NCBI GenBank assembly: GCA_903837305.1
Contig: CAILUB010000002.1
Coordinates: 1 to 38,879, forward strand
DNA from: an uncultured Cytophagaceae bacterium
GTDB taxonomy: Bacteria; Bacteroidota; Bacteroidia; Cytophagales; Spirosomataceae
Direction: 5' to 3'
Length of the DNA stretch: 38,879 nt
Positions 1 to 30,629 of this stretch are shown piece after piece. Below the pieces are notes generated by a model. It saw nothing but the letters and a program-made list of their open reading frames with translations. It did no database searches and was not told where the DNA came from. Each line of letters opens with the position of its first letter. Within the stretch, counting starts at the first letter, position 1. A program made the translations under genes and the position numbers.

Positions 1-222
1 GATCTCAAACTCAAATGGACAAATAAATCAATGCCATATAAAGAAATTTATGATAATCACAAACAAAATAATAACAATCTATCTAATAGAGAAGTTGAAT
101 TATTAAAGTTTAGATTTTCTAAAGATATAAAAAGCCAAAAAGATGCTGGTATAAAGTTTAATTTATCTAAACAAAGAATAGACCAAATTGAAAAAAGGGC
201 ATTGATGAAATTAATTTCTTAA
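1..222 (+). CDS. Sigma-70 region 4-like HTH protein, probably 5'-truncated
   Basis: LSNREVELLKFRF..SQKDAGIKFNLSKQRIDQIEKRALMKL matches the sigma region 4 pattern; the frame is open from base 1, with first ATG at 31. Confidence 0.75.
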   Translation, partial: DLKLKWTNKSMPYKEIYDNHKQNNNNLSNREVELLKFRFSKDIKSQKDAGIKFNLSKQRIDQIEKRALMKLIS

Positions 223-243
223 TACTTGGCAAGTGGATAACTG

Positions 244-273
244 AAAAGACAGCCCGAAAGCTGTCTTTTTTTT
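244..273. terminator. Bidirectional intrinsic terminator
   Basis: AAAAGACAGC-ccgaaa-GCTGTCTTTT followed by a T run, between convergent genes. Confidence 0.8.
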
Positions 274-448: not shown

Positions 449-1672
449 TCAGATATTTTCATTATAGCATACCCAGGCATCACGTAAAAATTTGACTTCC
501 TGTTTGCTTGGGTGTGGGAGTATATCAGGTGCTTCTTTAGTTAAAGGCGGGTATGTCTGAATATTGATATTCTTATTTCCCAGCCGGACCCAAGCCATAT
601 ATTCGTCAAGATCCAAAAAATCTTTCTTTTTTAAATCAAATAACCCGGCCATTCTGTCAGCTTCCTTGTCTCCTATTCTAAAAACTATAAAAGCGTTCAC
701 GTTGCCGAAAACCGATGAAAGAACCTTTGGCGATATTTCTTCAAAATCGTGATGTGCTAGTACCCAACCAACCTGCTTGTCTCGGCTCTTAGCAAGCATT
801 TCAGAAAAGTAAGGGCTGGCACATTCTTGAAATTCATCTACATAAACAATCAGGGGTTTTCTGTTCTTTATTTCAAATTCGCAATAGCTGACTATTGAAT
901 AAACGATTAAGTTAGATATATAAATTCTTGAAGTCCTTGACATTCGGCTGGTATCAACCAAGAGTGATTGATTATTTTCTAATAAGCGGTCAATGTAAAG
1001 CTCGTTCTCGCCAATAACAAAATCCCTCATTCTTCCATCGCAAATTTCCATTAGTCTGGAAGCTACACGCTTGGCGCTCTCAATCTTATCCTTGTTCCGT
1101 CTGATGTTCCTATCAAGTGCGTCAAACTCTTCCCAGTACCCGGCTACATTGGCAGGCATTTTATGGTTCTTCCGTGTTTTCTCGTAAAGCAAGAAGTCAA
1201 CCAGGTAATCAAGAGCTTTTTGATCATCTTTAAAAGCTCTTAACGCTTTACCAATTATCTCGCGCATTAATACCGTGCTTTCGGGGTTAGGACTAGTGAG
1301 GGTAACTAAAATGTCCAATACCTGGACGAACTCGGTAATTATATCATCTATGATATAACCCTGTTTTTTAAGCGGATTGATTACTATCGGATTGTTAATT
1401 GAAACGTAGCGGATGTTTTTGTCTTGGTTTAAATGGTGTAGTCTTTTAGAGCTGTCTCCTTTCGGGTCTATATAAACTATAGATATATCTTGGCTGATGT
1501 CATAATGAGCCATACGTTCCATTAAAACTGATTTACCCATTCCGGTTTTACCCAAGACGTAAGTATGGCTAAACCTGCTTTTCACCTTATTAATGATAGG
1601 CAAGTCTTGGTTAAGGTCTTGAAGTATGCCTAAATCTAACCTATATCTTTCTTGGTCTTTTCCGCTTTCCAC
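449..1672 (-). CDS. Type IV coupling protein-like ATPase (VirD4/TraD/HerA-FtsK superfamily)
   Basis: Walker A HTYVLGKTGMGKS, IDPKGD, Walker B IVYVDEFQ, SRDKQVGWVLAHH, GNVNAFIVFRIG; no N-terminal TM segment. Confidence 0.85.
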   Translation of the reverse strand: MESGKDQERYRLDLGILQDLNQDLPIINKVKSRFSHTYVLGKTGMGKSVLMERMAHYDISQDISIVYIDPKGDSSKRLHHLNQDKNIRYVSINNPIVINPLKKQGYIIDDIITEFVQVLDILVTLTSPNPESTVLMREIIGKALRAFKDDQKALDYLVDFLLYEKTRKNHKMPANVAGYWEEFDALDRNIRRNKDKIESAKRVASRLMEICDGRMRDFVIGENELYIDRLLENNQSLLVDTSRMSRTSRIYISNLIVYSIVSYCEFEIKNRKPLIVYVDEFQECASPYFSEMLAKSRDKQVGWVLAHHDFEEISPKVLSSVFGNVNAFIVFRIGDKEADRMAGLFDLKKKDFLDLDEYMAWVRLGNKNINIQTYPPLTKEAPDILPHPSKQEVKFLRDAWVCYNENI

Positions 1673-2370
1673 TTTTTAAAATCCACTTCGTTCTTTTTTT
1701 CTTCTACAATCTGCTCGGATAAACGTGCTTTCTGTTTAGTTTCTTCAACAACATAACCCTTGATAGCTTCCTGCATTTCAAAATCATTAAACTGCGTTCC
1801 GTTGGGATTAAATATTGATGATGTAATATAGGTTTGCAAAGTAGGTGGCATTGCTGATATGTCAATCTGCGTTAAAACCATTTTCATAAAATCGGCTTTA
1901 GCAAGCGCTTCTTGTGTTTTAGCTGACTTTAAATTAACATCTGCCATAGAATTTAGATTTGCTATCTCAAGAGCTTTTAACTGATGCTTCCTGCCCTCTT
2001 GTTCGTCACTAATAGCTTGTAATGCGTTTTGATGTTGAGCTAATTGAAGCTCTGCTGCTCTCTCTGCCTGTTGAAAAGCTCCTGCTATAAGCATTTCTAA
2101 AACTTCCTGATTAACGGCTAATTTAGCTTGTAAATTAAGAATTGCTGTATTGGCTATATTGATTTTTTCAATATAAGTTGTAATGTGGTCAATTCTTCCC
2201 TGGTCGTATCTCCAATGCTTAGATCTCCACCATTTTGAAATTCTGGTCTTAGGATTGGGGGTTTCAAGCATTTGATTTAGCTCTTGAACCAGATTAACGT
2301 AATTCAAGTTTAGGTCTGATAAATTGAATTGCCCGATACCTTTTTCTTTGTCTGCTTTCGTGTATGCCAT
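1636..2370 (-). CDS. Coiled-coil hypothetical protein in the mobilisation-like operon
   Basis: 244 aa, rich in Q/A/E/L heptads; coupled to neighbours (TAATG overlap at 2370). Confidence 0.7.
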   Translation of the reverse strand: MAYTKADKEKGIGQFNLSDLNLNYVNLVQELNQMLETPNPKTRISKWWRSKHWRYDQGRIDHITTYIEKINIANTAILNLQAKLAVNQEVLEMLIAGAFQQAERAAELQLAQHQNALQAISDEQEGRKHQLKALEIANLNSMADVNLKSAKTQEALAKADFMKMVLTQIDISAMPPTLQTYITSSIFNPNGTQFNDFEMQEAIKGYVVEETKQKARLSEQIVEEKKNEVDFKKWKAEKTKKDIG

Positions 2371-2906
2371 TATAGTACTATCTCCTTTTCGCAGTATTCA
2401 CAAAAAACAGTTTCAAGATATCTTTTACAATGTTCACACTTATCAGTTATATAGCGTTCTCTCGTTTGCACATTATTACAATGGTCGCAAGTCCATTTTG
2501 TATAGACTAAAATGCTTTTATCGCATTCCTTATTAGGGCAAGCAACATATTTTAAGGGAAATATTTTATGAAAAATAGATAAAATAGAACCAAGTAATAA
2601 CCCAAAAGCAACTGTATTTAAAAGCAATATATATAAAAGTGTTCCTATTAATTGGCTATTGTAAACTTGTTCTTTAGAAAATGGAGATGGCCAGAATAAT
2701 GGCCAAGTAAAGAATGTGTTTGAAGTATCGACAAAAACTCTCCAGGTCACAAAGACAGGGAAAACAATAAATATAGTTACTCCGAATAAAATTCTATAAT
2801 TATCTCTAAACTGAACTTTTTTAGCGAAATCAGACGCAAATAAATTTCTTTCCAAATAGTCTTTCAAACCTCCACCCCTCCCATTCTTTTTTGATATTTC
2901 CAACAC
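2370..2906 (-). CDS. Membrane protein with two TM helices and a C-terminal Zn-ribbon
   Basis: Two hydrophobic segments, then CPNKEC, CDHC, CEHC, CEYC; true start may be the TTG at 2867. Confidence 0.7.
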   Translation of the reverse strand: MLEISKKNGRGGGLKDYLERNLFASDFAKKVQFRDNYRILFGVTIFIVFPVFVTWRVFVDTSNTFFTWPLFWPSPFSKEQVYNSQLIGTLLYILLLNTVAFGLLLGSILSIFHKIFPLKYVACPNKECDKSILVYTKWTCDHCNNVQTRERYITDKCEHCKRYLETVFCEYCEKEIVL

Positions 2907-3507
2907 AAAGAACAGAGAAGCAAAACTGTTCTTCGGTGCAATACTTTAGTCCTAGTCTGTCGCTGTAAGTTTTCCACCACTTCTCGTATATAGATTTGTC
3001 TTTAGCCAGTATCTGATATTTATCTCGCTTCTGATTTAGGTAGTCGTGCCAATTAGGTTTTTCTTCTTCTATCTCAAGAAATACAAGTTTGTAGGCGTTT
3101 TCTTTTTTGTAAATAATAAGAGCGTCAGGGATTAAGAATGAAAAATGCGGAAATAGTGCAGTGTAAAAATCTTGTCGCTTAAATTCTTTTAATAAAAAAT
3201 CTGTAATTAGTAAAGAGTGTGCTGTAAAATTATTAACTGGTATTTTTACAAGGGTATAATAAGATTGGTCTTTTAGTATCTTATGAGTTTGTTCCGTTAT
3301 GGAATAGACTTTATTAAAGGTTAGATATCCGTTGTCAGTAAGCCATTTAAGTTTCTTGGGCGTTCCTAGCTTGTTATTAAAGGCGTTTAGGTGTTCTTTG
3401 GTCGTGTATCGGCAGATATAAGCGAAATAAAAAAAATCAAACAGTTGTTTGAAAGATGAACCTTTTGTAAGGTCGTTTAGGTCGGGGTATTTGTCCTCGT
3501 TCCGCAA
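2830..3507 (-). CDS. Replication-relaxation (Replic_Relax / MOBC-like) protein 1
   Basis: N-terminal wHTH-like region, HSLLITDF, and PDA-x-FLEIEE (D-x16-E-x-E); lies upstream of the coupling-protein-like gene. Confidence 0.7.
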   Translation of the reverse strand: MRNEDKYPDLNDLTKGSSFKQLFDFFYFAYICRYTTKEHLNAFNNKLGTPKKLKWLTDNGYLTFNKVYSITEQTHKILKDQSYYTLVKIPVNNFTAHSLLITDFLLKEFKRQDFYTALFPHFSFLIPDALIIYKKENAYKLVFLEIEEEKPNWHDYLNQKRDKYQILAKDKSIYEKWWKTYSDRLGLKYCTEEQFCFSVLCVGNIKKEWEGWRFERLFGKKFICV

Positions 3508-3688
3508 TTTATAGGTTTTACTATGGTGTTTTGTTTAATGTCAATAACTTAGATGAGTTTTTATAGGTTTGTATAATGGCGTAGCTGTTTGAATGAAGCC
3601 CGTGCGTTCATTGACTGTCATCAGGCAATGATAAGGAGGGGTTTATTGAAACACTTCATCTTAGGGCGGGTTTGCTTGGGTTTAAAAT

Positions 3689-4150
3689 CTATCCGTATTT
3701 TTTAATCGTGCTTTCTTTTAAATATTCACTCATGCTCTTCTTCGCTTCTCGTATGTTCCTTATGATCTCATAATTCTGCCAGGCTTTTTCGCCTCCGTAT
3801 TTCTTTTCCAGTTCGTTTAATTGTTCGTCTAACTGTTCCATTTTACTTTTGGTCTTTTCTTTATCAAAATTTATAACTCCAGTTCTACTGTTTACCGTTC
3901 CTGTTATGGGTATTTTAATCATATCCGATTGTATCCATTTGTAGCCGATAATCACACCCTTTGCGTTCTTAATCTTCTCGCATTTCACATTACTACCTTG
4001 TGCTTTTCTGTCATTTCTCGTTCTTCTTTCAAGGTTGCTCATCTTATATCTGTATTGTTTACATATCTGTTCAGCTTCATCTAAAGTCAAATAACCAGGG
4101 TATTTTGCTTTTAAGGCTTCCTCTAATTTTATTCTTAATCCTGTTTGCAT
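3689..4150 (-). CDS. Hypothetical protein (start re-called at MQTGLRIK)
   Basis: The longer ORF overlaps a better small gene; the ATG at 4150 follows that gene's stop. Confidence 0.65.
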   Translation of the reverse strand: MQTGLRIKLEEALKAKYPGYLTLDEAEQICKQYRYKMSNLERRTRNDRKAQGSNVKCEKIKNAKGVIIGYKWIQSDMIKIPITGTVNSRTGVINFDKEKTKSKMEQLDEQLNELEKKYGGEKAWQNYEIIRNIREAKKSMSEYLKESTIKKYG

Positions 4151-4304: not shown

Positions 4305-4342
4305 ATGTTTATGTTAAAAAGGCGAACAGTAAGGCGTTTTAA

Positions 4343-4948
4343 TTAGTTTTTAGCCTGTAATAAGGGCTGATCTGGCACTTTTATAATGCCATTTTCTATT
4401 TCAAATTTCTCAAGGAATGGCAACTGCGGTATATCTATCCCTACACTTCGCCAATCCCTTGTCTGAATTGAAAGAATGATGTTTCGTTTCTCTTTGCTGG
4501 TAACGGCCAGGTTATACATCATTAGCGTGTTCTTCTCGATATCCAAGAAGTTTTTATAGTTCTTAAATTCAACGGTCTTTGATATTTTCTTGGCTGCGAT
4601 TAATTGCGATAATGTCGGTCTGTATGAATGCCCCACTAGGTTAAGGACAATATCGGGTTCATGTTCAACCTTTTCATTCACCACCTGGCAATCTCTCTTG
4701 TTAATTTCGTAGCCGAGCTGATCATATTGATTTTCCAATTCGGCTTTTTCTTTCTGATATTTCTCATACAATTCATCTTTGGCTTTCCGGATTTGACCTT
4801 GTTTTTCAATAAGCTTGTGAAGTCCCTTAGCCTTTCGGATGTTTTCAATTTCTTTCGTGGTGGCTTCTTTTAAAATGTCCGCTAAGCCATTGCGGATATC
4901 TGACAAGACTTCTCCCAAAGCCCTGTCAAGTGTGCGTGCGTTTGACAT
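4343..4948 (-). CDS. Hypothetical coiled-coil protein
   Basis: 201-aa ORF in operon orientation, directly downstream of the long hairpin. Confidence 0.7.
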   Translation of the reverse strand: MSNARTLDRALGEVLSDIRNGLADILKEATTKEIENIRKAKGLHKLIEKQGQIRKAKDELYEKYQKEKAELENQYDQLGYEINKRDCQVVNEKVEHEPDIVLNLVGHSYRPTLSQLIAAKKISKTVEFKNYKNFLDIEKNTLMMYNLAVTSKEKRNIILSIQTRDWRSVGIDIPQLPFLEKFEIENGIIKVPDQPLLQAKN

Positions 4949-4986
4949 ACGTTTTTTTGTTAATAGTTAAATCGAGAATGACGCCT

Positions 4987-5126
4987 TACTGTCCGTCTCG
5001 CCCATTGGAAAGCAGCGGATACCTTGGAGCCTGTCAAGAATAAGCAGTTATCCATCACGGTATGTGTGGGTAACTGCCCTTTACTGGCTTTAAGGTGCTG
5101 CTACAATGGAAGAAGACGGACAAGTA
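4987..5126 (+). promoter_or_regulatory. Long imperfect hairpin, candidate ssDNA (Frpo-like) promoter
   Basis: Five stacked stems with G-T pairs on the + strand; the 3' arm reads TTTACT-N16-TACAAT, opposite TGTCAA in the 5' arm. Confidence 0.6.
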
Positions 5127-5152
5127 GACATGACTATTAACAAAAAGGTTTT

Positions 5153-5701
5153 TTAAAGTTCTATGACTGAAAGGTTTTGGAGTCCAAAATGTATTGCTCT
5201 GTCGATATCTTTATCCATAAAAACATCTATTCTGTTCGTATATCGTCTATTCATCCGGTCGGCTACGGTGCAATCGCCAATCTTGTCAATTCTTAATTTG
5301 GTTTTTAAAGGGTAGGCGTTTGTGGCAACTATGCACTCGCCTTTCTTGTATCTCTGGCAAATATCCGTCCCGTCTGCTGAGATGCAAGGGCTGGCGTCTG
5401 TTTGCTCTGATACGGAATTATAAGCGGATATTTCTCTGATCGTTCCCTGCTTTTCATCAGGGCAAATAACGGCGTCTAATGAGCAGAGGGGGTTTGCTTC
5501 TCTTTCAGATATTTCGTCAATTTCATTTGATACATTTTTATCTTGTCTGTGTGATATTGTATTCTTGATAAGGTATAAGCTATCTTGTCTTTGTTCTCCT
5601 TCATACGCTTCAACCCTGCTCGATATGCCTATGACGGCTATACCAAGCATTAAGGCGGTTAAAATTATTAATTCAGCTTTTTGCTGGTTGATGTTTTTCA
5701 T
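5153..5701 (-). CDS. 3D (Asp-Asp-Asp) domain protein with N-terminal membrane anchor, putative lytic transglycosylase-like
   Basis: ISAYNSVSEQTDASPCISADG, IVATNAYPLKTKLRI, VADRM..RIDVFM. Confidence 0.85.
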   Translation of the reverse strand: MKNINQQKAELIILTALMLGIAVIGISSRVEAYEGEQRQDSLYLIKNTISHRQDKNVSNEIDEISEREANPLCSLDAVICPDEKQGTIREISAYNSVSEQTDASPCISADGTDICQRYKKGECIVATNAYPLKTKLRIDKIGDCTVADRMNRRYTNRIDVFMDKDIDRAIHFGLQNLSVIEL

Positions 5702-8841: not shown

Positions 8842-9564
8842 TTAGGCTGTTAATGCCAAAAGCTGATTATGGCATTTAACGTGTTTCTCAAGGGCTATGG
8901 GTGGCGGTGCTGTTTTAAGCGCTTCCGTACAAGCCATATAATAGGCAAAAGCGTTTCGGTCCGTAAATTCTTCATGGCTGGGGTGCAACCATTCGTCTTT
9001 GACGGTGGTTAATTGCCTAGGTGAGATGATGTTCTTGCCAAACATCAAACCCATTGCTTTAAAGGCTTCATCGTCCGTCATCGGTCGGCTTTTAAGCGTG
9101 TCAATGTCGGCTGCTATTTCCTTAAAGCGATAAATAGACTTGTAAAGGGTTGAAATGATCATCGTTTCAAGATCGTTCCACACAAGGCGTGAGTGCCTCC
9201 TCATCGCCACTATATCGCCCGATAAGGCAAGATTGGAACAAATGAACACCGATGCACCTGTGGCAATTCCGATAGCTATACTCTTATCAAGGCTGTTGCG
9301 GTACGCTACTGATAAAGCAACGTCAGAAGCCTCGCCTTTAAAAGAAAGTATTGCAAAAAGTTGGTTGCCTTGTCTTGCCAGTCCGTAAGTTTCAGAAGAA
9401 AGAACGTAGTCTTTGAGGATGTTACCGGATATTTCTATCACCCTGTTTGCCAAGTCGAAATGCGATACCGGAATGAACGTGTCGGTCTGCTCTGGGACAG
9501 TAATAAGATCGAGAGCGTCCCTCGTTACATATTCACCACCTCTTGCCATCATTAATCCATTCAT
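8842..9564 (-). CDS. DUF932-family protein
   Basis: PVSH, RNSLDKSIA, ASVFICSNLALSGD..RRH motifs; SD GGAGGT. Confidence 0.75.
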   Translation of the reverse strand: MNGLMMARGGEYVTRDALDLITVPEQTDTFIPVSHFDLANRVIEISGNILKDYVLSSETYGLARQGNQLFAILSFKGEASDVALSVAYRNSLDKSIAIGIATGASVFICSNLALSGDIVAMRRHSRLVWNDLETMIISTLYKSIYRFKEIAADIDTLKSRPMTDDEAFKAMGLMFGKNIISPRQLTTVKDEWLHPSHEEFTDRNAFAYYMACTEALKTAPPPIALEKHVKCHNQLLALTA

Positions 9565-10269: not shown

Positions 10270-11025
10270 TTAATAAATTAATGGTCTTAAATTTCCTTTG
10301 TGATCGTAGCAGACGGCATCTTTGGGGTTTTTAATCAGTCGGTAATAGTTCGGATAAGGCATAAACAGAATTTTGTCTGATAGTTCGCACTGGGCTACTA
10401 TTTTAAAAATCATTTTCTTAATTTCGCCCTTTATGGTCTGGTATTCAGGGGTATTGTATTCGATATGTCTTTTGTACGGAGGGAAATTACGGGCTAACAC
10501 GATTAAATGTTTAGCGTTCTTGGGAGTCTTGAAATCCATTATCGGTTTCAGCTTCTTAGTGTAGAGTTCGCCTGTAGACATTCGCCTTTCAAGTTCCAGG
10601 TAAATTATCTTATCATCTATTTCCACAAAAGCATCGGGCGTATATCCTCCTAATCTAGGCTCGTGCTTAATGCTAAACCCTCTATTCCAATAAGCTGCAA
10701 ACATTGAGATTAAAACGTCTTGCTTCATGCTATCGTGTTCTTCCTTTAATTGTCCCTTTTCTCTTGTGTACTTTGGATCTATATCAAGTTTTCTATATAA
10801 AATTTTGGTCGGTCTGTAAAATTGTCTTGGTGTATGGCGATAATGGTCATATTTATCAAGTACGGGTTCAATAAGTTCCTGTTTCAAAAGTTTTCTAATA
10901 TATAACCTGGCATTCTTATCAATTCCCTCTATGGTCTTAGCTGTTGGACTGGCAATAACACTTAAATTGTTGGCATTTAAATATTGCAGTGTTCCAAATG
11001 CTTTTTTAACTTCTGTGATGTTCAT
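10270..11025 (-). CDS. Replication-relaxation (Replic_Relax / MOBC-like) protein 2
   Basis: wHTH-like N-terminus, EEHDSM, and TPDAFVEIDDKIIYLELER (D-x12-E-x-E). Confidence 0.75.
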   Translation of the reverse strand: MNITEVKKAFGTLQYLNANNLSVIASPTAKTIEGIDKNARLYIRKLLKQELIEPVLDKYDHYRHTPRQFYRPTKILYRKLDIDPKYTREKGQLKEEHDSMKQDVLISMFAAYWNRGFSIKHEPRLGGYTPDAFVEIDDKIIYLELERRMSTGELYTKKLKPIMDFKTPKNAKHLIVLARNFPPYKRHIEYNTPEYQTIKGEIKKMIFKIVAQCELSDKILFMPYPNYYRLIKNPKDAVCYDHKGNLRPLIY

Positions 11026-11028
11026 AAT

Positions 11029-11496
11029 TTACACATTAGCGTGATATTGATTTTGCGGAGCAAACTTTTTGCTATGCGCTTTAAAATGACATCTATCACA
11101 TAATAAAATTAAATTGTTTGGATTATTATTTGGAGTGCGTGTTTTTGATTTACCCATAAAATCTTCATGATGTAAAACAAGTTTTCTCTTTGTTTCTCCA
11201 CAATATTTACATTTATTCCCGTCTCGTTTATATACAGCTAAAACATTATCAAAACCATACGTTAATACAACCGGATAAGTTATATTACAATTTGTACTTT
11301 GTTTTAACTCCGTATTCCTTTTTAACAAATAATTTTTTGTTATTTGTTTTGCCTTTTCTTTGTTTGGACGATATTTCTTTTGATATTCATAATGGCATTT
11401 TTTGCAATGCCCTTGTCTAAAATACCTTTGTCCACTTCTAATTATATAGAATTTGTCTATTGCTTTTCTTTTTAGGCATTTTTTACAAATTGGCAT
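11029..11496 (-). CDS. HNH endonuclease with N-terminal Zn finger
   Basis: RDGNKCKYCG..LVLHHED..NNNPNNLILLCDRCHFKAH. Confidence 0.9.
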   Translation of the reverse strand: MPICKKCLKRKAIDKFYIIRSGQRYFRQGHCKKCHYEYQKKYRPNKEKAKQITKNYLLKRNTELKQSTNCNITYPVVLTYGFDNVLAVYKRDGNKCKYCGETKRKLVLHHEDFMGKSKTRTPNNNPNNLILLCDRCHFKAHSKKFAPQNQYHANV

Positions 11497-11756
11497 ATTA
11501 ACAAATTTGCGATTAACTTTCGGCGAAGTCGAAAGCTGGGGGGTTCATCTTTTATGCGTATATTGCTAAAAGCGAAGCTCCCAGCTTTCGGGTTTTCTTG
11601 CCACCTTTTGGTGGTAGAAAAGGCGAAATGTTAATCGCACTATAATAGCGATTTTTCGCTAAAGTTATTTAAATGGCGAATAAAGCGGTGGGTACAAATT
11701 GCTTTTGCGGATTTTAGAAATTGTTATTTTCAGTTATCCACAAGCTGTATATTATT

Positions 11757-11784
11757 ATTATAGCAAACTGACATAATCTTTCAA
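11757..11784 (-). promoter_or_regulatory. Sigma70-type promoter reading out of attP into the HNH operon
   Basis: TTGAAA-N16-TATAAT (TTTGCTATAAT); perfect DnaA box TTATCCACA at 11734-11742. Confidence 0.65.
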
Positions 11785-11920: not shown

Positions 11921-11974
11921 ACTTAAAATCCCTCGGAGCCTCGCTCTGTACGAGTTCGATTCTCGTCCCAGGCA
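11921..11974 (+). other. att core: 3' half of tRNA-Leu(UAA)
   Basis: Anticodon loop CTTAAAA, TCCCT, long variable arm CGGAGC/GCTCTG, T arm ACGAG-TTCGATT-CTCGT, acceptor strand CCCAGGC-A; no 5' half or D arm upstream. Confidence 0.9.
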
Positions 11975-11988
11975 TTACTTGTAAAATT

Positions 11989-12061: not shown

Positions 12062-13030
12062 TCAGAAAAAATTGTGCCCTAAGAACTGCAAATACCGCTG
12101 TGTCGTTGCCAGATTTGTATGGCCTAAAAGGTTCATGATCTCAATCAATGGTCTGCCTTCCGTTGCCAGTTTTGAAGCATATCTGTGGCGTAAATTATGC
12201 CAATTCCATTTAGTAGGAAACTCGCATAATTTGACAGCCTGTTCAAGAAAACGAGGGTAATCATCCCATTCATAGAATACCTTGCCCTTTCCGGTTATTC
12301 CGTTTAAGCAAGGCGGTAAAGGTACTATTCTGGCTGTCAAATTGCTGTTTTTGGCCTTTCTAGTATAAAGGATAACCTTATCATCCCGAATATGGTCATA
12401 TGACAGCCGTACAGCCTCGTTTATGCGACAACCGCTCTCTGATACAAAATCGAACAGTAAACGTTGTCTAGGGCTCAAAACTTCACGTACAAAGTCAATC
12501 TGTGATTGAGGAGGAATGTATTTTGCGTTTTGGTCAATAGAATACATTTCAATCCCGATAACAGGGTTTTTAATATCAAGTTCTTTTCGCCTTATTCCGT
12601 AAAAGAAAAGTGCCTTTAATAACCTGATCATGGAATTGACTTTAAAATAGCCCCTATTGGCCTTTTTAAGCCGTTTAGCTTCCAATTCTACAAGGTCAAT
12701 AATATCTTTCTTTCTAATCCTTGAAACCATTATATCCGTACCGAGAAAATCGATCAGCTTTTTCATATACCTTTTGTTTTCCTTGTAGTAATCAAGCGAC
12801 TTAGTATCTTTGATAAAATCGAGCCGGTCATTTACAAGGTCCAAGAGCTTCATGTCGGTACGAATATTGATAATCTTGTTTTGCAAATCCCGCAGATATT
12901 CCCTTTCAGCGTCCTGGGCTTGCTTCTTGGTGAGATACACGGATTTTGAACAATACTTAATCCCGTTAAAACTTCCGAGATAACGCCATCTTTCGCCGCG
13001 CTTTTTAAGCTTCCGTTTCTGGGCTGGCAC
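12062..13030 (-). CDS. int: Tyrosine integrase
   Basis: GCRINEA (R), HNLRH (HxxR), LLGH, TQRY (Y); SD AGGAGGT before the GTG start. Confidence 0.95.
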   Translation of the reverse strand: MPAQKRKLKKRGERWRYLGSFNGIKYCSKSVYLTKKQAQDAEREYLRDLQNKIINIRTDMKLLDLVNDRLDFIKDTKSLDYYKENKRYMKKLIDFLGTDIMVSRIRKKDIIDLVELEAKRLKKANRGYFKVNSMIRLLKALFFYGIRRKELDIKNPVIGIEMYSIDQNAKYIPPQSQIDFVREVLSPRQRLLFDFVSESGCRINEAVRLSYDHIRDDKVILYTRKAKNSNLTARIVPLPPCLNGITGKGKVFYEWDDYPRFLEQAVKLCEFPTKWNWHNLRHRYASKLATEGRPLIEIMNLLGHTNLATTQRYLQFLGHNFF

Positions 13031-14956: not shown

Positions 14957-16399
14957 ATGGATAACACGTTATATTACGGTGATAATCTTAATATTCTTCG
15001 ACACAAAGTAAAAGACGAATCTATTGATCTGATTTATCTTGATCCCCCATTTAATAGCAAAACCGATTATAACATCCTTTTTAAAGAACCAACCGGCGAG
15101 CTTTCTAAATCTCAAATAATGGCCTTTGAAGATACCTGGCATTGGAGCGAGGAATCAGAAAAAGCCTTTGAAGAAATATTAATGAGCCATTCAGAAGTTG
15201 CCGAAATGATGAGAGCATTTAGGGAATTTTTAAAAGACAACGATGTTATGGCTTATTTGACTATGATGTGTGTTAGGCTGCTTGAGTTGCAAAGAGTGTT
15301 AAAAACAACCGGTTCAATCTATTTGCATTGCGACCCTACAGCCAGCCATTATTTAAAAATTCTAATGGATGCCATTTTCGGAAAGAAGAATTTTAAGAAT
15401 GAAATAATTTGGCATTATCGTAAGTGGCCATCGGGTAAAAGACAGTTTCAGCGGAATCATGACATTGTTTTATTTTATGCTAAAAGTGATTCGGCTGATC
15501 GAATTTTTAAACAAATTGATTTTATGGAAAGAACTGAATCAACTTTAAAGAGATTTGGAAAATCAAAGATCGTATCCGGACATGATGAAAACGGAAATAG
15601 ACTTCCCTCACAAGTGGAGGATGTAGAATCGTTGGGAGTACCGAGGGATGATGTTTGGGACATTGGCAGAGTACCGCCCATAAAGCAGTTATTTCCGACT
15701 CAAAAACCGCAACAATTATTATCGAGAATAATTAGAGCAAGCAGTAATGAAGGCGATGTTATTCTTGACCCATTTTGCGGTTGTGGAACAACCATTGTTG
15801 AAGCGCAAAACCTAAAAAGAATTTGGCAGGGAATAGATATAACATTCCTTTCGATAAGTTTAATTAAAAAACGGTTAAAAGATATTTATAATGTAACCGC
15901 TCCGAAAGATTATCAAATATTTGGTGAGCCTACTGACCTACCTGGCGCTTTAGCCTTAAAGGATATTAACAAACATCAATTCCAATGGTGGGCTGTGTCT
16001 TTAGTAGATGGGATACCATACAAAGGCGGTAAAAAAGGTGCAGATACTGGGATTGACGGATATATTTACTTTGCGGACGAAGAAAAATACAAGAAAGCAA
16101 TTATTTCTGTCAAAAGCGGTCATGTTGGAGTTAAAGATATTAGAGAGTTGAATGATGTTGTCGATAGGGAAAAAGCGGAAATAGGGGTATTTATAACCCT
16201 TGAATCGTCAACAGAGCCAATGAGAAAAGAAGCCATTGGCAAAGGATTTTATTATTCGACAAAATTAAACAAGAATTTTCCTAAAATTCAAATATTAACA
16301 ATAGAAGAATTGTTTGATAACAGGAGACCGAACATTCCGCAAGTTGTTTCAATGTATAAGAAAGCGGAAAAATCGGTAGATCAAGGGATGTTAATTTAA
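14957..16399 (+). CDS. Amino (N6-A/N4-C) DNA methyltransferase with C-terminal Mrr-like nuclease-fold domain
   Basis: YLDPPF, FPTQKP, DPFCGCGTT (beta class); C-terminal ADTGIDG..IISVKSG. Confidence 0.9.
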   Translation: MDNTLYYGDNLNILRHKVKDESIDLIYLDPPFNSKTDYNILFKEPTGELSKSQIMAFEDTWHWSEESEKAFEEILMSHSEVAEMMRAFREFLKDNDVMAYLTMMCVRLLELQRVLKTTGSIYLHCDPTASHYLKILMDAIFGKKNFKNEIIWHYRKWPSGKRQFQRNHDIVLFYAKSDSADRIFKQIDFMERTESTLKRFGKSKIVSGHDENGNRLPSQVEDVESLGVPRDDVWDIGRVPPIKQLFPTQKPQQLLSRIIRASSNEGDVILDPFCGCGTTIVEAQNLKRIWQGIDITFLSISLIKKRLKDIYNVTAPKDYQIFGEPTDLPGALALKDINKHQFQWWAVSLVDGIPYKGGKKGADTGIDGYIYFADEEKYKKAIISVKSGHVGVKDIRELNDVVDREKAEIGVFITLESSTEPMRKEAIGKGFYYSTKLNKNFPKIQILTIEELFDNRRPNIPQVVSMYKKAEKSVDQGMLI

Positions 16400-27432: not shown

Positions 27433-27983
27433 ATTCTCTTTTTCTTATAAGGGGCTAATAAAAGCTCGATGTCCTGGGTTAAAAACTTGTCCCATTCTAC
27501 TCTTGCGTTTGATATTTCCTCGCTTGAATATCCGTCACTTCTTCGCTTGTTGTAAATTTTAGCAACCAGTTTCATGCAGGCTACCTTGATGGCGTTGGGG
27601 ATATCGGCTGTTTCATACCCTGCCGTATAAACGACATTAATATTTCTAATTCCTGAATACATAACATCAACGTAGATAATACCTGCCTCGTCATCCCTTT
27701 GATAATCGTCAATATCAAAATCTTTAAACAGTGGATCGCTGTTTGTTCCGCTTTTGTATTTCAACCAACGAAAAGAAATGACTGGATAATTGTTAAGAAA
27801 GATAGCGTCTTTGATATTGTCACCATCGAAATATTCGCTGATGTCCGTTTGTTTTTCAATGGCTCGGCCTAAATATTCCTTTACCCATTCGCTGATTGCG
27901 TTCAAATAGACAGTAATGGTTGTGTCATCTGTCGTTCCCGAAAGTCCTATGTGATTTTTAAATTCTGTTAAAGAGATTAACAT
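27429..27983 (-). CDS. Head-tail connector (gp6/gp15-like)
   Basis: LISLTEFKNHIG, YTAGY..IPNAIKVAC, LLAPYK. Confidence 0.85.
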   Translation of the reverse strand: MLISLTEFKNHIGLSGTTDDTTITVYLNAISEWVKEYLGRAIEKQTDISEYFDGDNIKDAIFLNNYPVISFRWLKYKSGTNSDPLFKDFDIDDYQRDDEAGIIYVDVMYSGIRNINVVYTAGYETADIPNAIKVACMKLVAKIYNKRRSDGYSSEEISNARVEWDKFLTQDIELLLAPYKKKRI

Positions 27984-28962
27984 ATTGGTCTTTTAAATTT
28001 TCCCAGCTCCACGCTTGGGCTATGTGATTACTTATTTTTGAATACTTCGTGATATCCTTTCCGGCTATTTCGTCAATCTTCTTGGCTATCTCTTTCGGGT
28101 CAATGTCTGCGATCTCGATTTCCCTATTAATCATCAATTTGTCTACTCGTAAGGGCTTAATCAACAATTCTTTGGGCAAAAACTGATTCTGCGGTGTTAA
28201 ATCGGTCATTATAATGGCCATTCCTCGGCTCATCGCTTCATTCAGCGGTAGGCTCTGCCCTGCGTACCTCCTTGGTAGTACCAACACATCAGCGTCCTCC
28301 CAAATTTCCCAATAATTCTCATAATCGCATACATCTACCCTTACATTCGCGTATCGATTCGATATCGATTCTATGGGAACCTGGCTTTTAATAACTATCT
28401 CAATATTGCTTTTAATATAGGGTATAGCCTTTAAAAATAGCTCTGTTCCGTTTCTGTCATAAGCTGCTTTCATGTTTCCTGCGATATGAATAAATTTATT
28501 TGCTTTCTTTCTTAGTTTAAAGGGCAGGACTTCTCTATTGATCGGAAAAGGGATAAACGCTTTTGGACCGGGGATCTCGTTATAGTGATATAAAATAGGA
28601 GATATGTAGAAATCCGGTCTATAATCCCTGAACCATTCGTAATTTACCCGTAAAATTGATTTAACGCCCACTCTACGCGCTATCTCAAAGGCTTTGGGGT
28701 AATATGGGGTTTCTATGGTGAAAAGAACGTCTATGCCTTCAAAAAAGGCTTCTAGCTGACTCTCTGTCGGTATTCCAGTGACTATTACGGGTTTGTTAAA
28801 TCTTTCAGGATAAATCTTATAAATCTCTCCAGGGTAAAGGCTTTCAAACTCAACTATCATTACTTTGGCTTCTGGAAAGTGTCTGCAAAACTCCCATGTC
28901 TCAACTCCTAAGCCTGTGTTGTCGGCTCTGCCGATGATTCCTAGTCTAATATCTCCTGGCAT
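27958..28962 (-). CDS. GT-B glycosyltransferase (GT4-like)
   Basis: ADVLVLPRRYAGQSLPLNEAMSRGMAIIMTD and WSWE; start re-called at MPGDIRLG. Confidence 0.85.
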   Translation of the reverse strand: MPGDIRLGIIGRADNTGLGVETWEFCRHFPEAKVMIVEFESLYPGEIYKIYPERFNKPVIVTGIPTESQLEAFFEGIDVLFTIETPYYPKAFEIARRVGVKSILRVNYEWFRDYRPDFYISPILYHYNEIPGPKAFIPFPINREVLPFKLRKKANKFIHIAGNMKAAYDRNGTELFLKAIPYIKSNIEIVIKSQVPIESISNRYANVRVDVCDYENYWEIWEDADVLVLPRRYAGQSLPLNEAMSRGMAIIMTDLTPQNQFLPKELLIKPLRVDKLMINREIEIADIDPKEIAKKIDEIAGKDITKYSKISNHIAQAWSWENLKDQYVNLFNRI

Positions 28963-29647
28963 AAATTTGGCCACCGCCATTATAACGACCAATCGTGTGG
29001 ATATTATGTGTTAAAGAAAGCTTGGCTATTAATAACCCAAAAGTTTTTGCGTCTGTGTCGTGAAATTCTGCGGTGATATAGGCTAATTTCTTCATGTTCT
29101 CTTGGCTAATAGTCTCAAAAATACCATATTCGGCCCATTCACAATCGATCTTGAGAACGGCAACTTCTTCCAGTGCGTTGAGAATATCGTTAATACTTAC
29201 CGCTTTAACCGTTTGTTTGGGACAGTTTGACTCACCAACATATTCAATGCGTTTACTGGCCGCCTGTGATTTATAAATTTCTATCGTTTCATTTTTAGAA
29301 GATACGGCAAATTGTCTTAACTCAATATTTTCGATTCCATTAGCTTTAATGTTCTTTTTAAATATTTCTCCGTTGTCGTCTTCCGGCTCGTAAGAGATCA
29401 CTTGTTTAGCTCCCAATAAGGAGGCATAAATTGAAAACATCCCGACGTTGGCTCCAATATCTAAGACTATACCGCCTTCAACGTCTTTGGCTTCCATTTG
29501 ATAAACGTTTTCTTCAAAAATTTCCCTAATTACAATACGATCTGTAATATTATCTTTAAGATCGCCCGGTGTTTCTCTTATAAAAAATTGCAATTTGCCA
29601 AATGGCTCTAACTCATATTCCTCTTTTGTTATTTTAGATTTTTCCAT
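28946..29647 (-). CDS. FkbM-family methyltransferase
   Basis: VLDIGANVGMFS, YEP, LKIDCEWAE, EFH. Confidence 0.9.
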   Translation of the reverse strand: MEKSKITKEEYELEPFGKLQFFIRETPGDLKDNITDRIVIREIFEENVYQMEAKDVEGGIVLDIGANVGMFSIYASLLGAKQVISYEPEDDNGEIFKKNIKANGIENIELRQFAVSSKNETIEIYKSQAASKRIEYVGESNCPKQTVKAVSINDILNALEEVAVLKIDCEWAEYGIFETISQENMKKLAYITAEFHDTDAKTFGLLIAKLSLTHNIHTIGRYNGGGQIYARRY

Positions 29648-30629
29648 CTTTTTTAAGTTTATTTATTATCATTTCTACCCTGTTAATATAGGTGTGATTT
29701 TCCTTTACGTGTTCCATTGCTTCCAGCCTTATTTTGCCCCTTTCCTCGTCTGATTTTACGTAATATTCGATAATATCTTTTAAACTCTCAAAGTCACCAT
29801 GATAGTAGGGGATAAGGTGTTTATAGTATTCAAACTGTTCTTCAAGTCCTGGCACTCTCGGATGTATTAGGAATCCTCCGCGCCCTAGTGTTTCCGGTAT
29901 TCTATCGCTCCAATAATTCGGGCTAAATGTGCTGTCTCCCACAATTACTTTGGCGCTGTTGTAAAGTCTGTTTAATTCATCACCTCGTATGGCATGGCCT
30001 CCGTCAGGGTAAAGTCTGAACCTTGTCCCGTAAGTCTGTTTGAGCCAATTTATTAGGCGTGGTCTGTATGGCCATTCGCCGTGATAGCGGTAAGAGCCAA
30101 CAAATATAACATCATGCTCAAATCTCTTTTCTTTTTCTCCTAAATAGCAACTGGTATGCAATACCGCCGGGGGAAAGAAAAAATGATTAACTCCCATTGC
30201 CTTAAATTCGTCTTGATGGCCTCCGTCTGCTGAAAACACATAATCACTTAGAAAGAACGGGTCATTTCTCAGGTCATCGCCTCGGTCTAATCCTATGTAA
30301 AGATCAAGATGAACAGATACGATAGGCACTTTCTTAGCGGCTAATACTTTCTTCCATTGCTTGCCAACTTCGCACCAGGTACGGGTATAAAGGATAAAAT
30401 CATAACTCGTTTGAGCTGATATGATCCAATTCACCATTTCATCGGTCAACTGATTCTCTTGGACTGGTGTAACTTCCCAGCCGATAGCTTCAAAAGATTT
30501 CTTAATATCGTTTTCTGTGCTGAAAGGTGCGGCGAAATTTCCGACATAGATTATTCTATTCCGTGGGCTTTCTTTTTGTGGGCTTTTAGGCCGTGTTCTT
30601 GTTTGTACTCGTTTCCGCATATTGGGCAA
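29634..30629 (-). CDS. Glycosyltransferase (CgeB / Glyco_trans_1_2-like); start uncertain
   Basis: DVIFVGS, LYNSAK, YWSDRIPETLGRGGFLI, HTYINR. Confidence 0.85.
   Translation of the reverse strand: MPNMRKRVQTRTRPKSPQKESPRNRIIYVGNFAAPFSTENDIKKSFEAIGWEVTPVQENQLTDEMVNWIISAQTSYDFILYTRTWCEVGKQWKKVLAAKKVPIVSVHLDLYIGLDRGDDLRNDPFFLSDYVFSADGGHQDEFKAMGVNHFFFPPAVLHTSCYLGEKEKRFEHDVIFVGSYRYHGEWPYRPRLINWLKQTYGTRFRLYPDGGHAIRGDELNRLYNSAKVIVGDSTFSPNYWSDRIPETLGRGGFLIHPRVPGLEEQFEYYKHLIPYYHGDFESLKDIIEYYVKSDEERGKIRLEAMEHVKENHTYINRVEMIINKLKKDGKI

What the first reader, a model, noticed from the sequence alone, without database searches (positions are those of the whole stretch)
4987..5126. 140-nt hairpin that assembles a promoter in + strand ssDNA (Frpo-like)
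Seen stems: 4987-4998/5114-5126, 5002-5007/5104-5109, 5011-5016/5097-5102, 5021-5031/5086-5096, 5044-5054/5067-5077. All three wobble pairs are G-T on the + strand, the template for the downstream gene. The 3' arm reads TTTACT-N16-TACAAT with TGC before the -10, the same spacing and extension as the three dsDNA promoters in this genome. The 5' arm places TGTCAA (complement of TTGACA) opposite the -35 and a mismatch bubble at the -10. Known: Frpo/ssi elements drive early expression from incoming ssDNA. Inferred: genes 4948-3689 are expressed immediately after ssDNA transfer, which independently supports the mobilisation model.
Basis: partly seen in the sequence, partly recalled or inferred. Interest (0 to 1): 0.85.

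Follow-up and report, generated by a model that had tools for sequence, protein, structure and literature searches.

The report
Single-strand promoter in a mobilisable phage
A conserved DNA hairpin in a tailed temperate phage likely works as a promoter only when the DNA is single-stranded, and its place beside relaxase-like and coupling-protein-like genes suggests the phage may also travel between cells by conjugation.

Summary
The hairpin is real (z about -6, 0 of 200 shuffles) and longer than reported (4954-5146). The window alone does not tell the strand; homologs do. All 3 related loci with complete upstream DNA carry the hairpin before the same gene. G-T pairs fall on the gene's template strand 27 to 5. 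A -10 hexamer stays on the opposite arm, its second A unpaired in 4 of 4 copies, and the predicted start falls on a conserved leader. The gene points toward a Replic_Relax-like nuclease and a coupling-protein-like ATPase, so leading-region geometry predicts the same strand. The cassette sits in two phages with different capsid families. No sequence similarity to Frpo/ssi was found. Best reading (0.62): a new class of single-strand promoter in a phage that can likely be mobilised by conjugation. Unshown: any transcript, the nick site, transfer. A CloDF13-like nick match was no better than chance.

The parts
4954..5146 (+). Whole imperfect hairpin (about 193 nt), folding favoured on the + strand, the template of gene 4343-4948
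4954..4967 (+). 5' arm of the perfect 14-bp distal stem (partner 5133-5146); ends 5 nt from the start codon; one compensatory pair in L004; absent in L006
4987..4998 (+). 5' arm of basal stem (partner 5114-5126); template for the first transcribed bases; two compensatory pairs in L005/L006
5032..5037 (+). TGTCAA, template-side partner of the -35 (GTCA kept in 5 of 5 copies)
5044..5077 (+). Inner stem; holds a DnaA-box-like 9-mer (label recalled), flipped in orientation in L004
5080..5085 (+). -35-like hexamer TTTACT on the non-template arm
5099..5107 (+). Extended -10 (TGC TACAAT); A5103 predicted unpaired, T5102 paired
4949..4999 (-). Predicted 5' leader of the ssDNA-derived transcript (+1 at 4998-4999)
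   Evidence: predicted from -10 spacing
4343..4948 (-). 201-aa all-helical protein of unknown family, first gene under the element
4323..4337 (-). Post-stop element complementary to the first ~20 nt of the predicted leader
3689..4150 (-). Second gene (153 aa from ATG 4150), no family; homolog in L007
3508..3688 (.). Spacer before the relaxase-like gene, candidate oriT; loosely conserved C-rich motif at 3668-3680
   Evidence: nick-site likeness not above chance
2830..3507 (-). Winged-helix plus PD-(D/E)xK nuclease, Replic_Relax-like (MOBC-like relaxase candidate)
1636..2906 (-). Two conserved cassette genes: 178-aa membrane protein with paired cysteines and 244-aa coiled-coil protein
449..1672 (-). 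P-loop ATPase resembling TraD/VirD4 coupling proteins (below curated cut-offs)
11921..11977 (+). att core: 57-bp exact match to the 3' half of deltaproteobacterial tRNA-Leu(TAA), next to the integrase 12062-13030

Best explanation
The element is a conserved hairpin on the template strand of gene 4948-4343 that likely acts as a sigma-70 promoter only in single-stranded DNA, and the single strand would likely arrive by conjugation-type transfer driven by the neighbouring relaxase-like and coupling-like proteins. Shown: the fold, its conservation before the same gene, its strand bias, the conserved -10 and leader, and the gene order. Inferred steps: (1) the Replic_Relax-like protein nicks in the 3508-3688 spacer and the ATPase hands the + strand, 5' end first, to a mating channel of a helper element, since the phage encodes none that was detected; (2) 4150-3689, 4948-4343 and then the hairpin enter first and the relaxase gene last; (3) the hairpin folds, the 3' arm supplies -35/extended -10 as non-template strand, the unpaired second A of the -10 seeds opening, and RNA polymerase copies the 5' arm leftward from 4998-4999; (4) the basal and distal stems re-anneal behind the polymerase and free the leader and ribosome site from the template; (5) the leader pairs with the post-stop element, closing the message end to end, probably to set its lifetime; (6) second-strand synthesis switches the promoter off; on read-through RNA from the phage's ordinary promoter the same inverted repeat would bury the start region and keep the gene quiet.
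For: Hairpin before the homologous gene in 3 of 3 loci with full upstream DNA, plus the matching half in a truncated fourth. A covariance model built only from L005+L006 finds the window copy on + (33 bits, E 3e-6) and L004 on the equivalent strand (30 bits), and neither on the sense strand at E<=1. G-T vs A-C on the template strand 27:5 (W 6:2, L004 5:0, L005 6:2, L006 10:1); template strand folds better in 5 of 5. -10 hexamers TACAAT, TAAAAT, TAAAAT, TAAGAT, each after GC, each 6 nt before the conserved stem block; second A unpaired with probability 1.0, 0.72, 0.94, 0.79 and first T paired; background rate of that motif 0.0003 per position. L004 reads TTGATA-16-TAAAAT, 10 of 12. Best sense-strand -10 at the same start is 3-4 of 6; L006 has a sense terminator upstream of the hairpin and no sense promoter before the start codon, while its relaxase gene has its own. 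Two-sided changes in basal, spacer and distal stems. Leader-trailer duplex -28 to -37 kcal, best site within -3 to +8 nt of the stop in 5 of 5, next best -12 to -18. Relaxase-like gene downstream in 5 of 5 loci long enough; Replic_Relax above cut-off in L004, TrwB_AAD_bind above cut-off in L004 and L006. Known leading genes lie on the transferred strand with relaxase entering last (PMC11541004, passages). VirB4-family genes occur in 8 of 61 genomes of the likely host family.
Against: No transcript data: no RNA holder was listed (see Tried and rejected). In the window alone the two strands fold almost equally and the - strand z-score is the better one. Only about three independent lineages; L005 and L006 are 86% identical, so p=1e-4 overstates. 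The -35 is 19-20 nt from the -10 in L005/L006. G-T bias cannot tell ssDNA from an antisense RNA. No nick site found; likeness to the CloDF13 site is at chance level in 7 of 7 spacers. The window's relaxase scores below the Pfam cut-off (18.5 vs 25.3) and the ATPase below all NCBIfam cut-offs; fold matches are middling (Z 7-8). [quoted passage not shown] Bacillus phages carry Replic_Relax with an FtsK-type ATPase, read as plasmid-prophage replication (PMC9658697, passage). The cassette occurs without the gene and without an evident hairpin in G411. The strand of the leader-trailer pairing is not resolved.
Confidence: 0.62

Rival explanations
1. It is an ssDNA promoter or priming signal, but the single strand comes from rolling-circle replication of a plasmid-like prophage inside the same cell (Replic_Relax as initiator); the RNA mainly primes second-strand synthesis, perhaps helped by DnaA binding to the inner stem.
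For: Replic_Relax with a DNA-translocase ATPase is read as plasmid-prophage replication in Bacillus phages; Pfam describes both replication and relaxation; Frpo transcripts can prime; a DnaA box in a hairpin can load helicase on ssDNA (PMC6127211, passages); no mating-pore genes detected in the window.
Against: The ATPase's best matches are TraD/VirD4 coupling proteins in 3 of 4 copies and VirD4/VirB4 tied in the fourth, FtsK only weakly; the phage has an integrase, an att core and a primase-like gene; the predicted RNA is a full message with a conserved leader and end element.
Confidence: 0.15
2. The 3' arm is an ordinary dsDNA promoter firing rightward (a ~40-nt RNA, 5114-5154), and the inverted repeat works on the - strand mRNA as a translation lock or RNase III site, with 5'-3' end pairing as in type I toxin-antitoxin messages (comparison recalled).
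For: The site is intact in dsDNA; a T run follows on + in the window and L004; the sense RNA folds at -81.6 kcal and buries the A-rich start region; leader-trailer pairing is conserved; no - strand terminator was found between the 8492 promoter and the gene.
Against: Wobbles favour the antisense strand 27:5 and sense RNA folds 5-25 kcal worse in the four full copies; L006 terminates upstream and has no sense promoter; it does not explain the conserved unpaired A or the template-side GTCA. The lock may be a second role rather than an alternative.
Confidence: 0.12
3. The + strand is transcribed as a 6S-like rod RNA that mimics a promoter and titrates host RNA polymerase.
For: RNA folding also favours the + strand (-87 vs -82; -108 vs -86); length near 190 nt; an unpaired A at the -11-like place is also a 6S feature (recalled).
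Against: No Rfam match at gathering or E<=10 other than two chance rows; no antisense-strand promoter-like site near the left of the hairpin in the window, L004 or L006; the loop is small, not a large central bubble; fixed 49-52 nt from leader start to start codon.
Confidence: 0.06
4. The repeats are ends of a small mobile or invertible element, or protein-binding operators, with no promoter role.
For: Leader and post-stop element form inverted repeats around the gene; the hairpin tip is flipped between the window and L004.
Against: Single copy in window and genome; gene orientation constant in all loci; no transposase likeness; no joints or inversions in 7 runs laid (contigs only).
Confidence: 0.05

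Closest known systems
Frpo1/Frpo2 of F and ssi1-3 of ColIb-P9 (class 1 ssDNA promoters)
   Same: Long imperfect hairpin on the template strand just before a start codon, -35/-10 on the distal arm, gene pointing toward the relaxase side (PMC11541004 passages and Supplementary Table 2; PMC9849209 passages).
   Different: No sequence similarity found (by eye); about 140-190 nt against about 330 nt; single copy; in a tailed phage of a probable deltaproteobacterial host; near-consensus extended -10; post-stop element complementary to the leader, not mentioned in the passages read.
[quoted passage not shown]
   Same: Homology-independent hairpins with reconstituted boxes and mapped starts show that unrelated sequences do this job (PMC12672017 and 10.64898/2026.01.09.698686, passages).
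   Different: Known from IncI1/IncF plasmids of enterobacteria; their sequences were not seen, so direct comparison rests on the empty plasmid BLAST.
MOBC mobilisation regions (CloDF13, pAD1) and IMEs
   Same: PD-(D/E)xK relaxase with a coupling protein and no mating pore (PMC12857230, PMC11389934, passages).
   Different: Relaxase precedes the ATPase with two extra genes between; no significant nick-site match; embedded in phages with full head and tail gene sets.
Bacillus phages with Replic_Relax + FtsK (Novomoskovsk, Bolokhovo)
   Same: Tailed phage carrying a Replic_Relax gene and a DNA-translocase ATPase (PMC9658697, passage).
   Different: Read as plasmid-prophage replication; no ssDNA promoter mentioned in the passage read; ATPase here is TraD/VirD4-like.
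'Conjugative prophage' Phi1207.3 of Streptococcus pyogenes
   Same: A prophage reported to move by a conjugation-like route (PMC4260502, passages).
   Different: The words relaxase and oriT do not occur in that paper's main text; mechanism left open there.
ABC-primosome A-site
   Same: DnaA-box-like 9-mer inside an ssDNA hairpin stem (PMC6127211, passages).
   Different: Here the box is imperfect (one arm 8 of 9 to the perfect box at 11734, the other 7 of 9) and degenerate in other copies; a lead only.

Membership tests
Frpo/ssi (class 1) sequence family | Sequence similarity to F Frpo or ColIb ssi | tested here: not met
   blastn of 4940-5160 against 72,556 plasmids and 50,697 phages: no match at E<=1; no likeness by eye to the five known sequences
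ssDNA promoters (functional kind) | Stable stem-loop on the template strand upstream of a gene | tested here: met
ssDNA promoters (functional kind) | -35 and -10 boxes rebuilt in the stem, absent from the sense dsDNA strand | tested here: met
   -10 in 4 of 4; -35 at 16 nt in 2 of 4 and at 19-20 nt in 2 of 4; sense-strand -10 at most 4 of 6
ssDNA promoters (functional kind) | Lies in the leading region on the transferred strand | tested here: inconclusive
   Gene order fits if oriT is in 3508-3688; nick site and strand not identified
ssDNA promoters (functional kind) | Transcription from ssDNA and not from dsDNA; mapped start | not testable with these tools
   needs in vitro transcription or 5' RACE
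MOBC / Replic_Relax relaxase | PF13814 match and PD-(D/E)xK residues | tested here: inconclusive
   Window 18.5 bits (cut-off 25.3); 1 of 10 family members scanned is over the cut-off, 5 of 10 match at E<=0.1; D128, E145, E147, K160 invariant in 11 rows; winged helix plus nuclease-like fold at Z about 7
MOBC / Replic_Relax relaxase | CloDF13-type nick site near the gene | tested here: inconclusive
   best 6-8 of 11 matches, shuffle fractions 0.12-0.95; a divergent site is not excluded
Type IV coupling protein | TrwB/TraD/VirD4 domain match | tested here: inconclusive
   TrwB_AAD_bind over cut-off in L004 and L006, not hit in the window copy; NCBIfam TraD/VirD4 best hits but under cut-offs
6S RNA | Rfam 6S model match; large central bubble | tested here: not met
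Self-transmissible conjugative element | Own mating-pore genes | tested here: not met
   no mating-pore family among 61 window proteins apart from weak VirB4/TraG likeness of the single ATPase; the contig may be incomplete

The most novel reading that the evidence does not exclude
A group of tailed temperate phages of deltaproteobacteria has a second, virion-free route of spread: their own relaxase and coupling protein feed the excised genome as ssDNA into a helper's mating channel, and a new class of ssDNA promoter switches on an establishment gene used only on that route, its message closed by 5'-3' pairing and locked on ordinary phage transcripts.
Probability: 0.4. Interest if true: 0.88.

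Novelty: new variant of a known kind. Interest (0 to 1): 0.72.

Why it matters
In the passages read, tested ssDNA promoters come from enterobacterial IncF/IncI plasmids. A conserved one in dsDNA tailed phages means these genomes regularly exist as a defined single strand, which is the best indirect sign that the phage-borne relaxase and coupling genes are in use. It would make 'phages that also move by conjugation' directly testable with a 200-nt oligonucleotide and purified polymerase, give a compact ssDNA promoter with near-consensus boxes, and single out a 201-aa protein family of unknown function as a candidate establishment or anti-defence factor.

Tried and rejected
Rfam: 0 gathering hits in the window, 2 chance rows locally. 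Single-protein viral scan found no relative. The 17-nt leader motif in viral contigs gave 5 loci, of which 1 is L004 again and 4 are chance matches without hairpin or cassette. The 201-aa gene: none in genome contigs, 0 of 69 genomes of the likely host family, none in phage or plasmid records; relatives of G000 gave only two ~30-nt matches in 41 genomes. Relaxase profile: 0 of 301 and 1 of 401 genomes (overlapping draws). No fold or family for the 201-aa protein. CloDF13 nick likeness, first noted by eye, failed the shuffle control and is dropped as evidence. DnaA-box pattern count in the window is at chance level (4 vs 4.8). The second nuclease-like gene 10270-11025 aligns only weakly to the relaxase family (E 0.08). 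No RNA holder listed among sequencing runs; contigs laid added no usable hairpin variants beyond one inserted T. The model R1 did not detect the truncated L008 copy; alignment A10 mixes strands and chance rows and was not used for pair counts. MAFFT alignments A5 and A8 mis-register the 3' arms, so covariation was read from anchored pair tables, not from a formal statistic. Earlier findings of this scan: nothing shown. Literature searches listed no paper whose title or abstract start reports an ssDNA promoter in a tailed phage; most were seen as listings only, and subscription papers are not held. Supplementary figures of PMC12672017 and PMC9849209 with promoter structures were not seen.

Full report
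Setting. The window is the whole contig G000:C2. It encodes terminase, portal, protease, HK97-type capsid, tail genes and a tyrosine integrase. Beside the integrase, 11921-11977 matches the 3' half of tRNA-Leu(TAA) exactly over 57 bp in 2 of 121 genome loci, labelled Syntrophorhabdus sp. and delta proteobacterium; most of the 80 listed titles are Desulfobacterota or Deltaproteobacteria. G000's own tRNA-Leu(TAA) differ and the contig has no other match in G000, so the contig is probably an excised phage of a deltaproteobacterium binned with another organism (inference).

Observation. The fold is far beyond dinucleotide shuffles on both strands and third among 968 windows. It extends by a perfect 14-bp helix to 4954-5146. 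From this copy alone the strand cannot be called: -35.7 against -34.7 kcal/mol.

Homologs. The downstream 201-aa protein has 8 close relatives and 66 representatives at E<=0.001, no family and no fold match. Six loci were recovered. Three hold full upstream DNA (L004, L005, L006) and all three carry the hairpin; L008 holds the gene-proximal half; L007 and L009 start inside the gene. A covariance model from L005+L006 alone finds the window copy on + and the L004 copy on the equivalent strand, and no second copy in the window above E 0.17. L004 lies in a 34.8-kb record with direct terminal repeats and another capsid family (phrog_267). L006 is followed by genes that read as chromosomal housekeeping genes (my reading, not scanned).

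Strand. Aligning each arm against the other gives 27 G-T and 5 A-C on the template strand over four copies, with 22 other mismatches and 213 Watson-Crick pairs (anchors chosen by me; an untrimmed count gave 39:10). The template strand folds better in 5 of 5, as DNA and as RNA. The copies are not independent. Two-sided changes occur in the basal stem (2 pairs), the stem next to the -10 (several) and the distal stem (1).

Promoter anatomy. On the arm that would be non-template, all four full copies keep a -10 (TACAAT, TAAAAT, TAAAAT, TAAGAT) after GC, TGC in three, 6 nt before the conserved stem block. The first T is paired and the second A unpaired in all four; sigma-70 is known to capture that A at a duplex-to-single-strand junction (recalled). 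The -35 is at 16 nt in the window and L004 (TTGATA, 10 of 12) and at 19-20 nt in L005/L006, which have the TG extension. The sense strand offers at best 3-4 of 6 for a -10 at the same start, though L006 and L008 have weak extended -10-like words closer to the gene. In L006 a sense terminator precedes the hairpin and no sense promoter lies before the start codon. Known Frpo sequences are listed in the same geometry, start-codon complement first (PMC11541004, Supplementary Table 2).

Directly after the stop codon lies an element complementary to the first ~20 nt of the predicted transcript: best duplex -28 to -37 kcal within -3 to +8 nt of the stop in 5 of 5 loci, next best -12 to -18. L007 and two contigs of run X6 carry it too; L009 does not. 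In L004, L006 and L008 the complementarity runs up to the predicted +1, an independent check on the start; in the window it is 4 nt shorter. In L005/L006 it is also the 5' arm of a terminator-like hairpin (by eye). Whether it pairs as RNA or as ssDNA is not resolved; I favour end-to-end closure of the message.

Source of ssDNA. In 5 of 5 loci long enough, the gene points toward a winged-helix PD-(D/E)xK protein (Replic_Relax over cut-off in L004, 18.5 bits in the window), followed where held by a membrane protein, a coiled-coil protein and an ATPase whose best matches are TraD/VirD4 coupling proteins, under cut-offs in NCBIfam, over in Pfam for L004 and L006. If the nick lies in the spacer before the relaxase and the relaxase enters last, as is typical (PMC11541004), the + strand is transferred and the gene and hairpin lead. 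That agrees with the wobble bias, which was derived separately. The spacer has a loosely conserved C-rich motif, but likeness to the CloDF13 site (PMC5935869, passage) is at chance level. L009 has a RadC-like gene in second place, a gene often seen in leading regions (recalled). No mating pore was detected in the phage; VirB4-family genes occur in 8 of 61 genomes of the likely host family. Against: Bacillus phages carry a similar pair read as plasmid-prophage replication, gene order differs from typical MOBC, and G411 has the cassette without this gene or an evident hairpin in 1.1 kb upstream.

Mechanism and rivals are set out in their sections: ssDNA promoter after mobilisation 0.62; ssDNA promoter or primer in rolling-circle replication 0.15; dsDNA antisense promoter with mRNA lock 0.12; 6S-like RNA 0.06; mobile ends or operators 0.05. 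That it is an ssDNA signal of some kind thus stands at about 0.77.

Known and new. It works like Frpo but is not a member of that sequence family. Three unrelated classes are known from IncF/IncI plasmids (PMC12672017, passages), so a further class is a new variant; its presence in tailed phages with a mobilisation cassette was not found in searches (listings, plus passages of 15 papers; one section of PMC8708921 read whole, which rejects ssDNA promoters for pLS20 because the nicked strand is the non-template one, the very test proposed here). Verdict: observation confirmed, interpretation largely upheld by comparative evidence and untested by experiment; interest 0.72.

Noticed in passing
window 11507-11640: A stronger branched hairpin (+ strand -43.3 vs - strand -35.4 kcal, z -8 over 11470-11760) sits before the HNH gene 11029-11496 and a second PD-(D/E)xK-like gene 10270-11025. 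It also favours the template strand and is followed by TATAAT; unrelated in sequence to the 4954-5146 element. Possible second ssDNA signal.
   Followed up: partly
window 220-247 and 11727-11754: Inverted repeat pair 11.5 kb apart around a perfect DnaA-box-like word at 11734-11742, bracketing the block from att to the ATPase.
   Followed up: no
window 10270-11025: Second nuclease-like gene with a PD-x-E-x-E motif; only weakly alignable to the relaxase family.
   Followed up: partly
window 8842-9564: DUF932-like protein (E 6e-4, below cut-off), a family recalled from leading regions and phage recombination modules.
   Followed up: no
window 27958-30629: Two glycosyltransferases and an FkbM-type methyltransferase between capsid and head-tail connector genes; possible virion or surface glycosylation.
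   Followed up: no
window 14957-16399: The only long + strand gene: N6/N4 methyltransferase fused to an Mrr-like domain.
   Followed up: no
window 5044-5077 vs L004 9880-9915: The hairpin tip is inverted between the two phages while the outer arms keep their orientation.
   Followed up: partly
P0033, P0040, P0042: Distant relatives of the 201-aa protein show W at conserved G columns, hinting at hosts that read TGA as glycine.
   Followed up: no
G000 contig 118 (ARAGORN numbering): Cluster of five tRNA-Leu genes within 450 bp, possibly part of a tRNA array.
   Followed up: no
L142 367-3776 (G411:C50): The relaxase, membrane, coiled-coil, ATPase cassette in a genome drawn from the likely host phylum, with the membrane gene duplicated.
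   Followed up: partly
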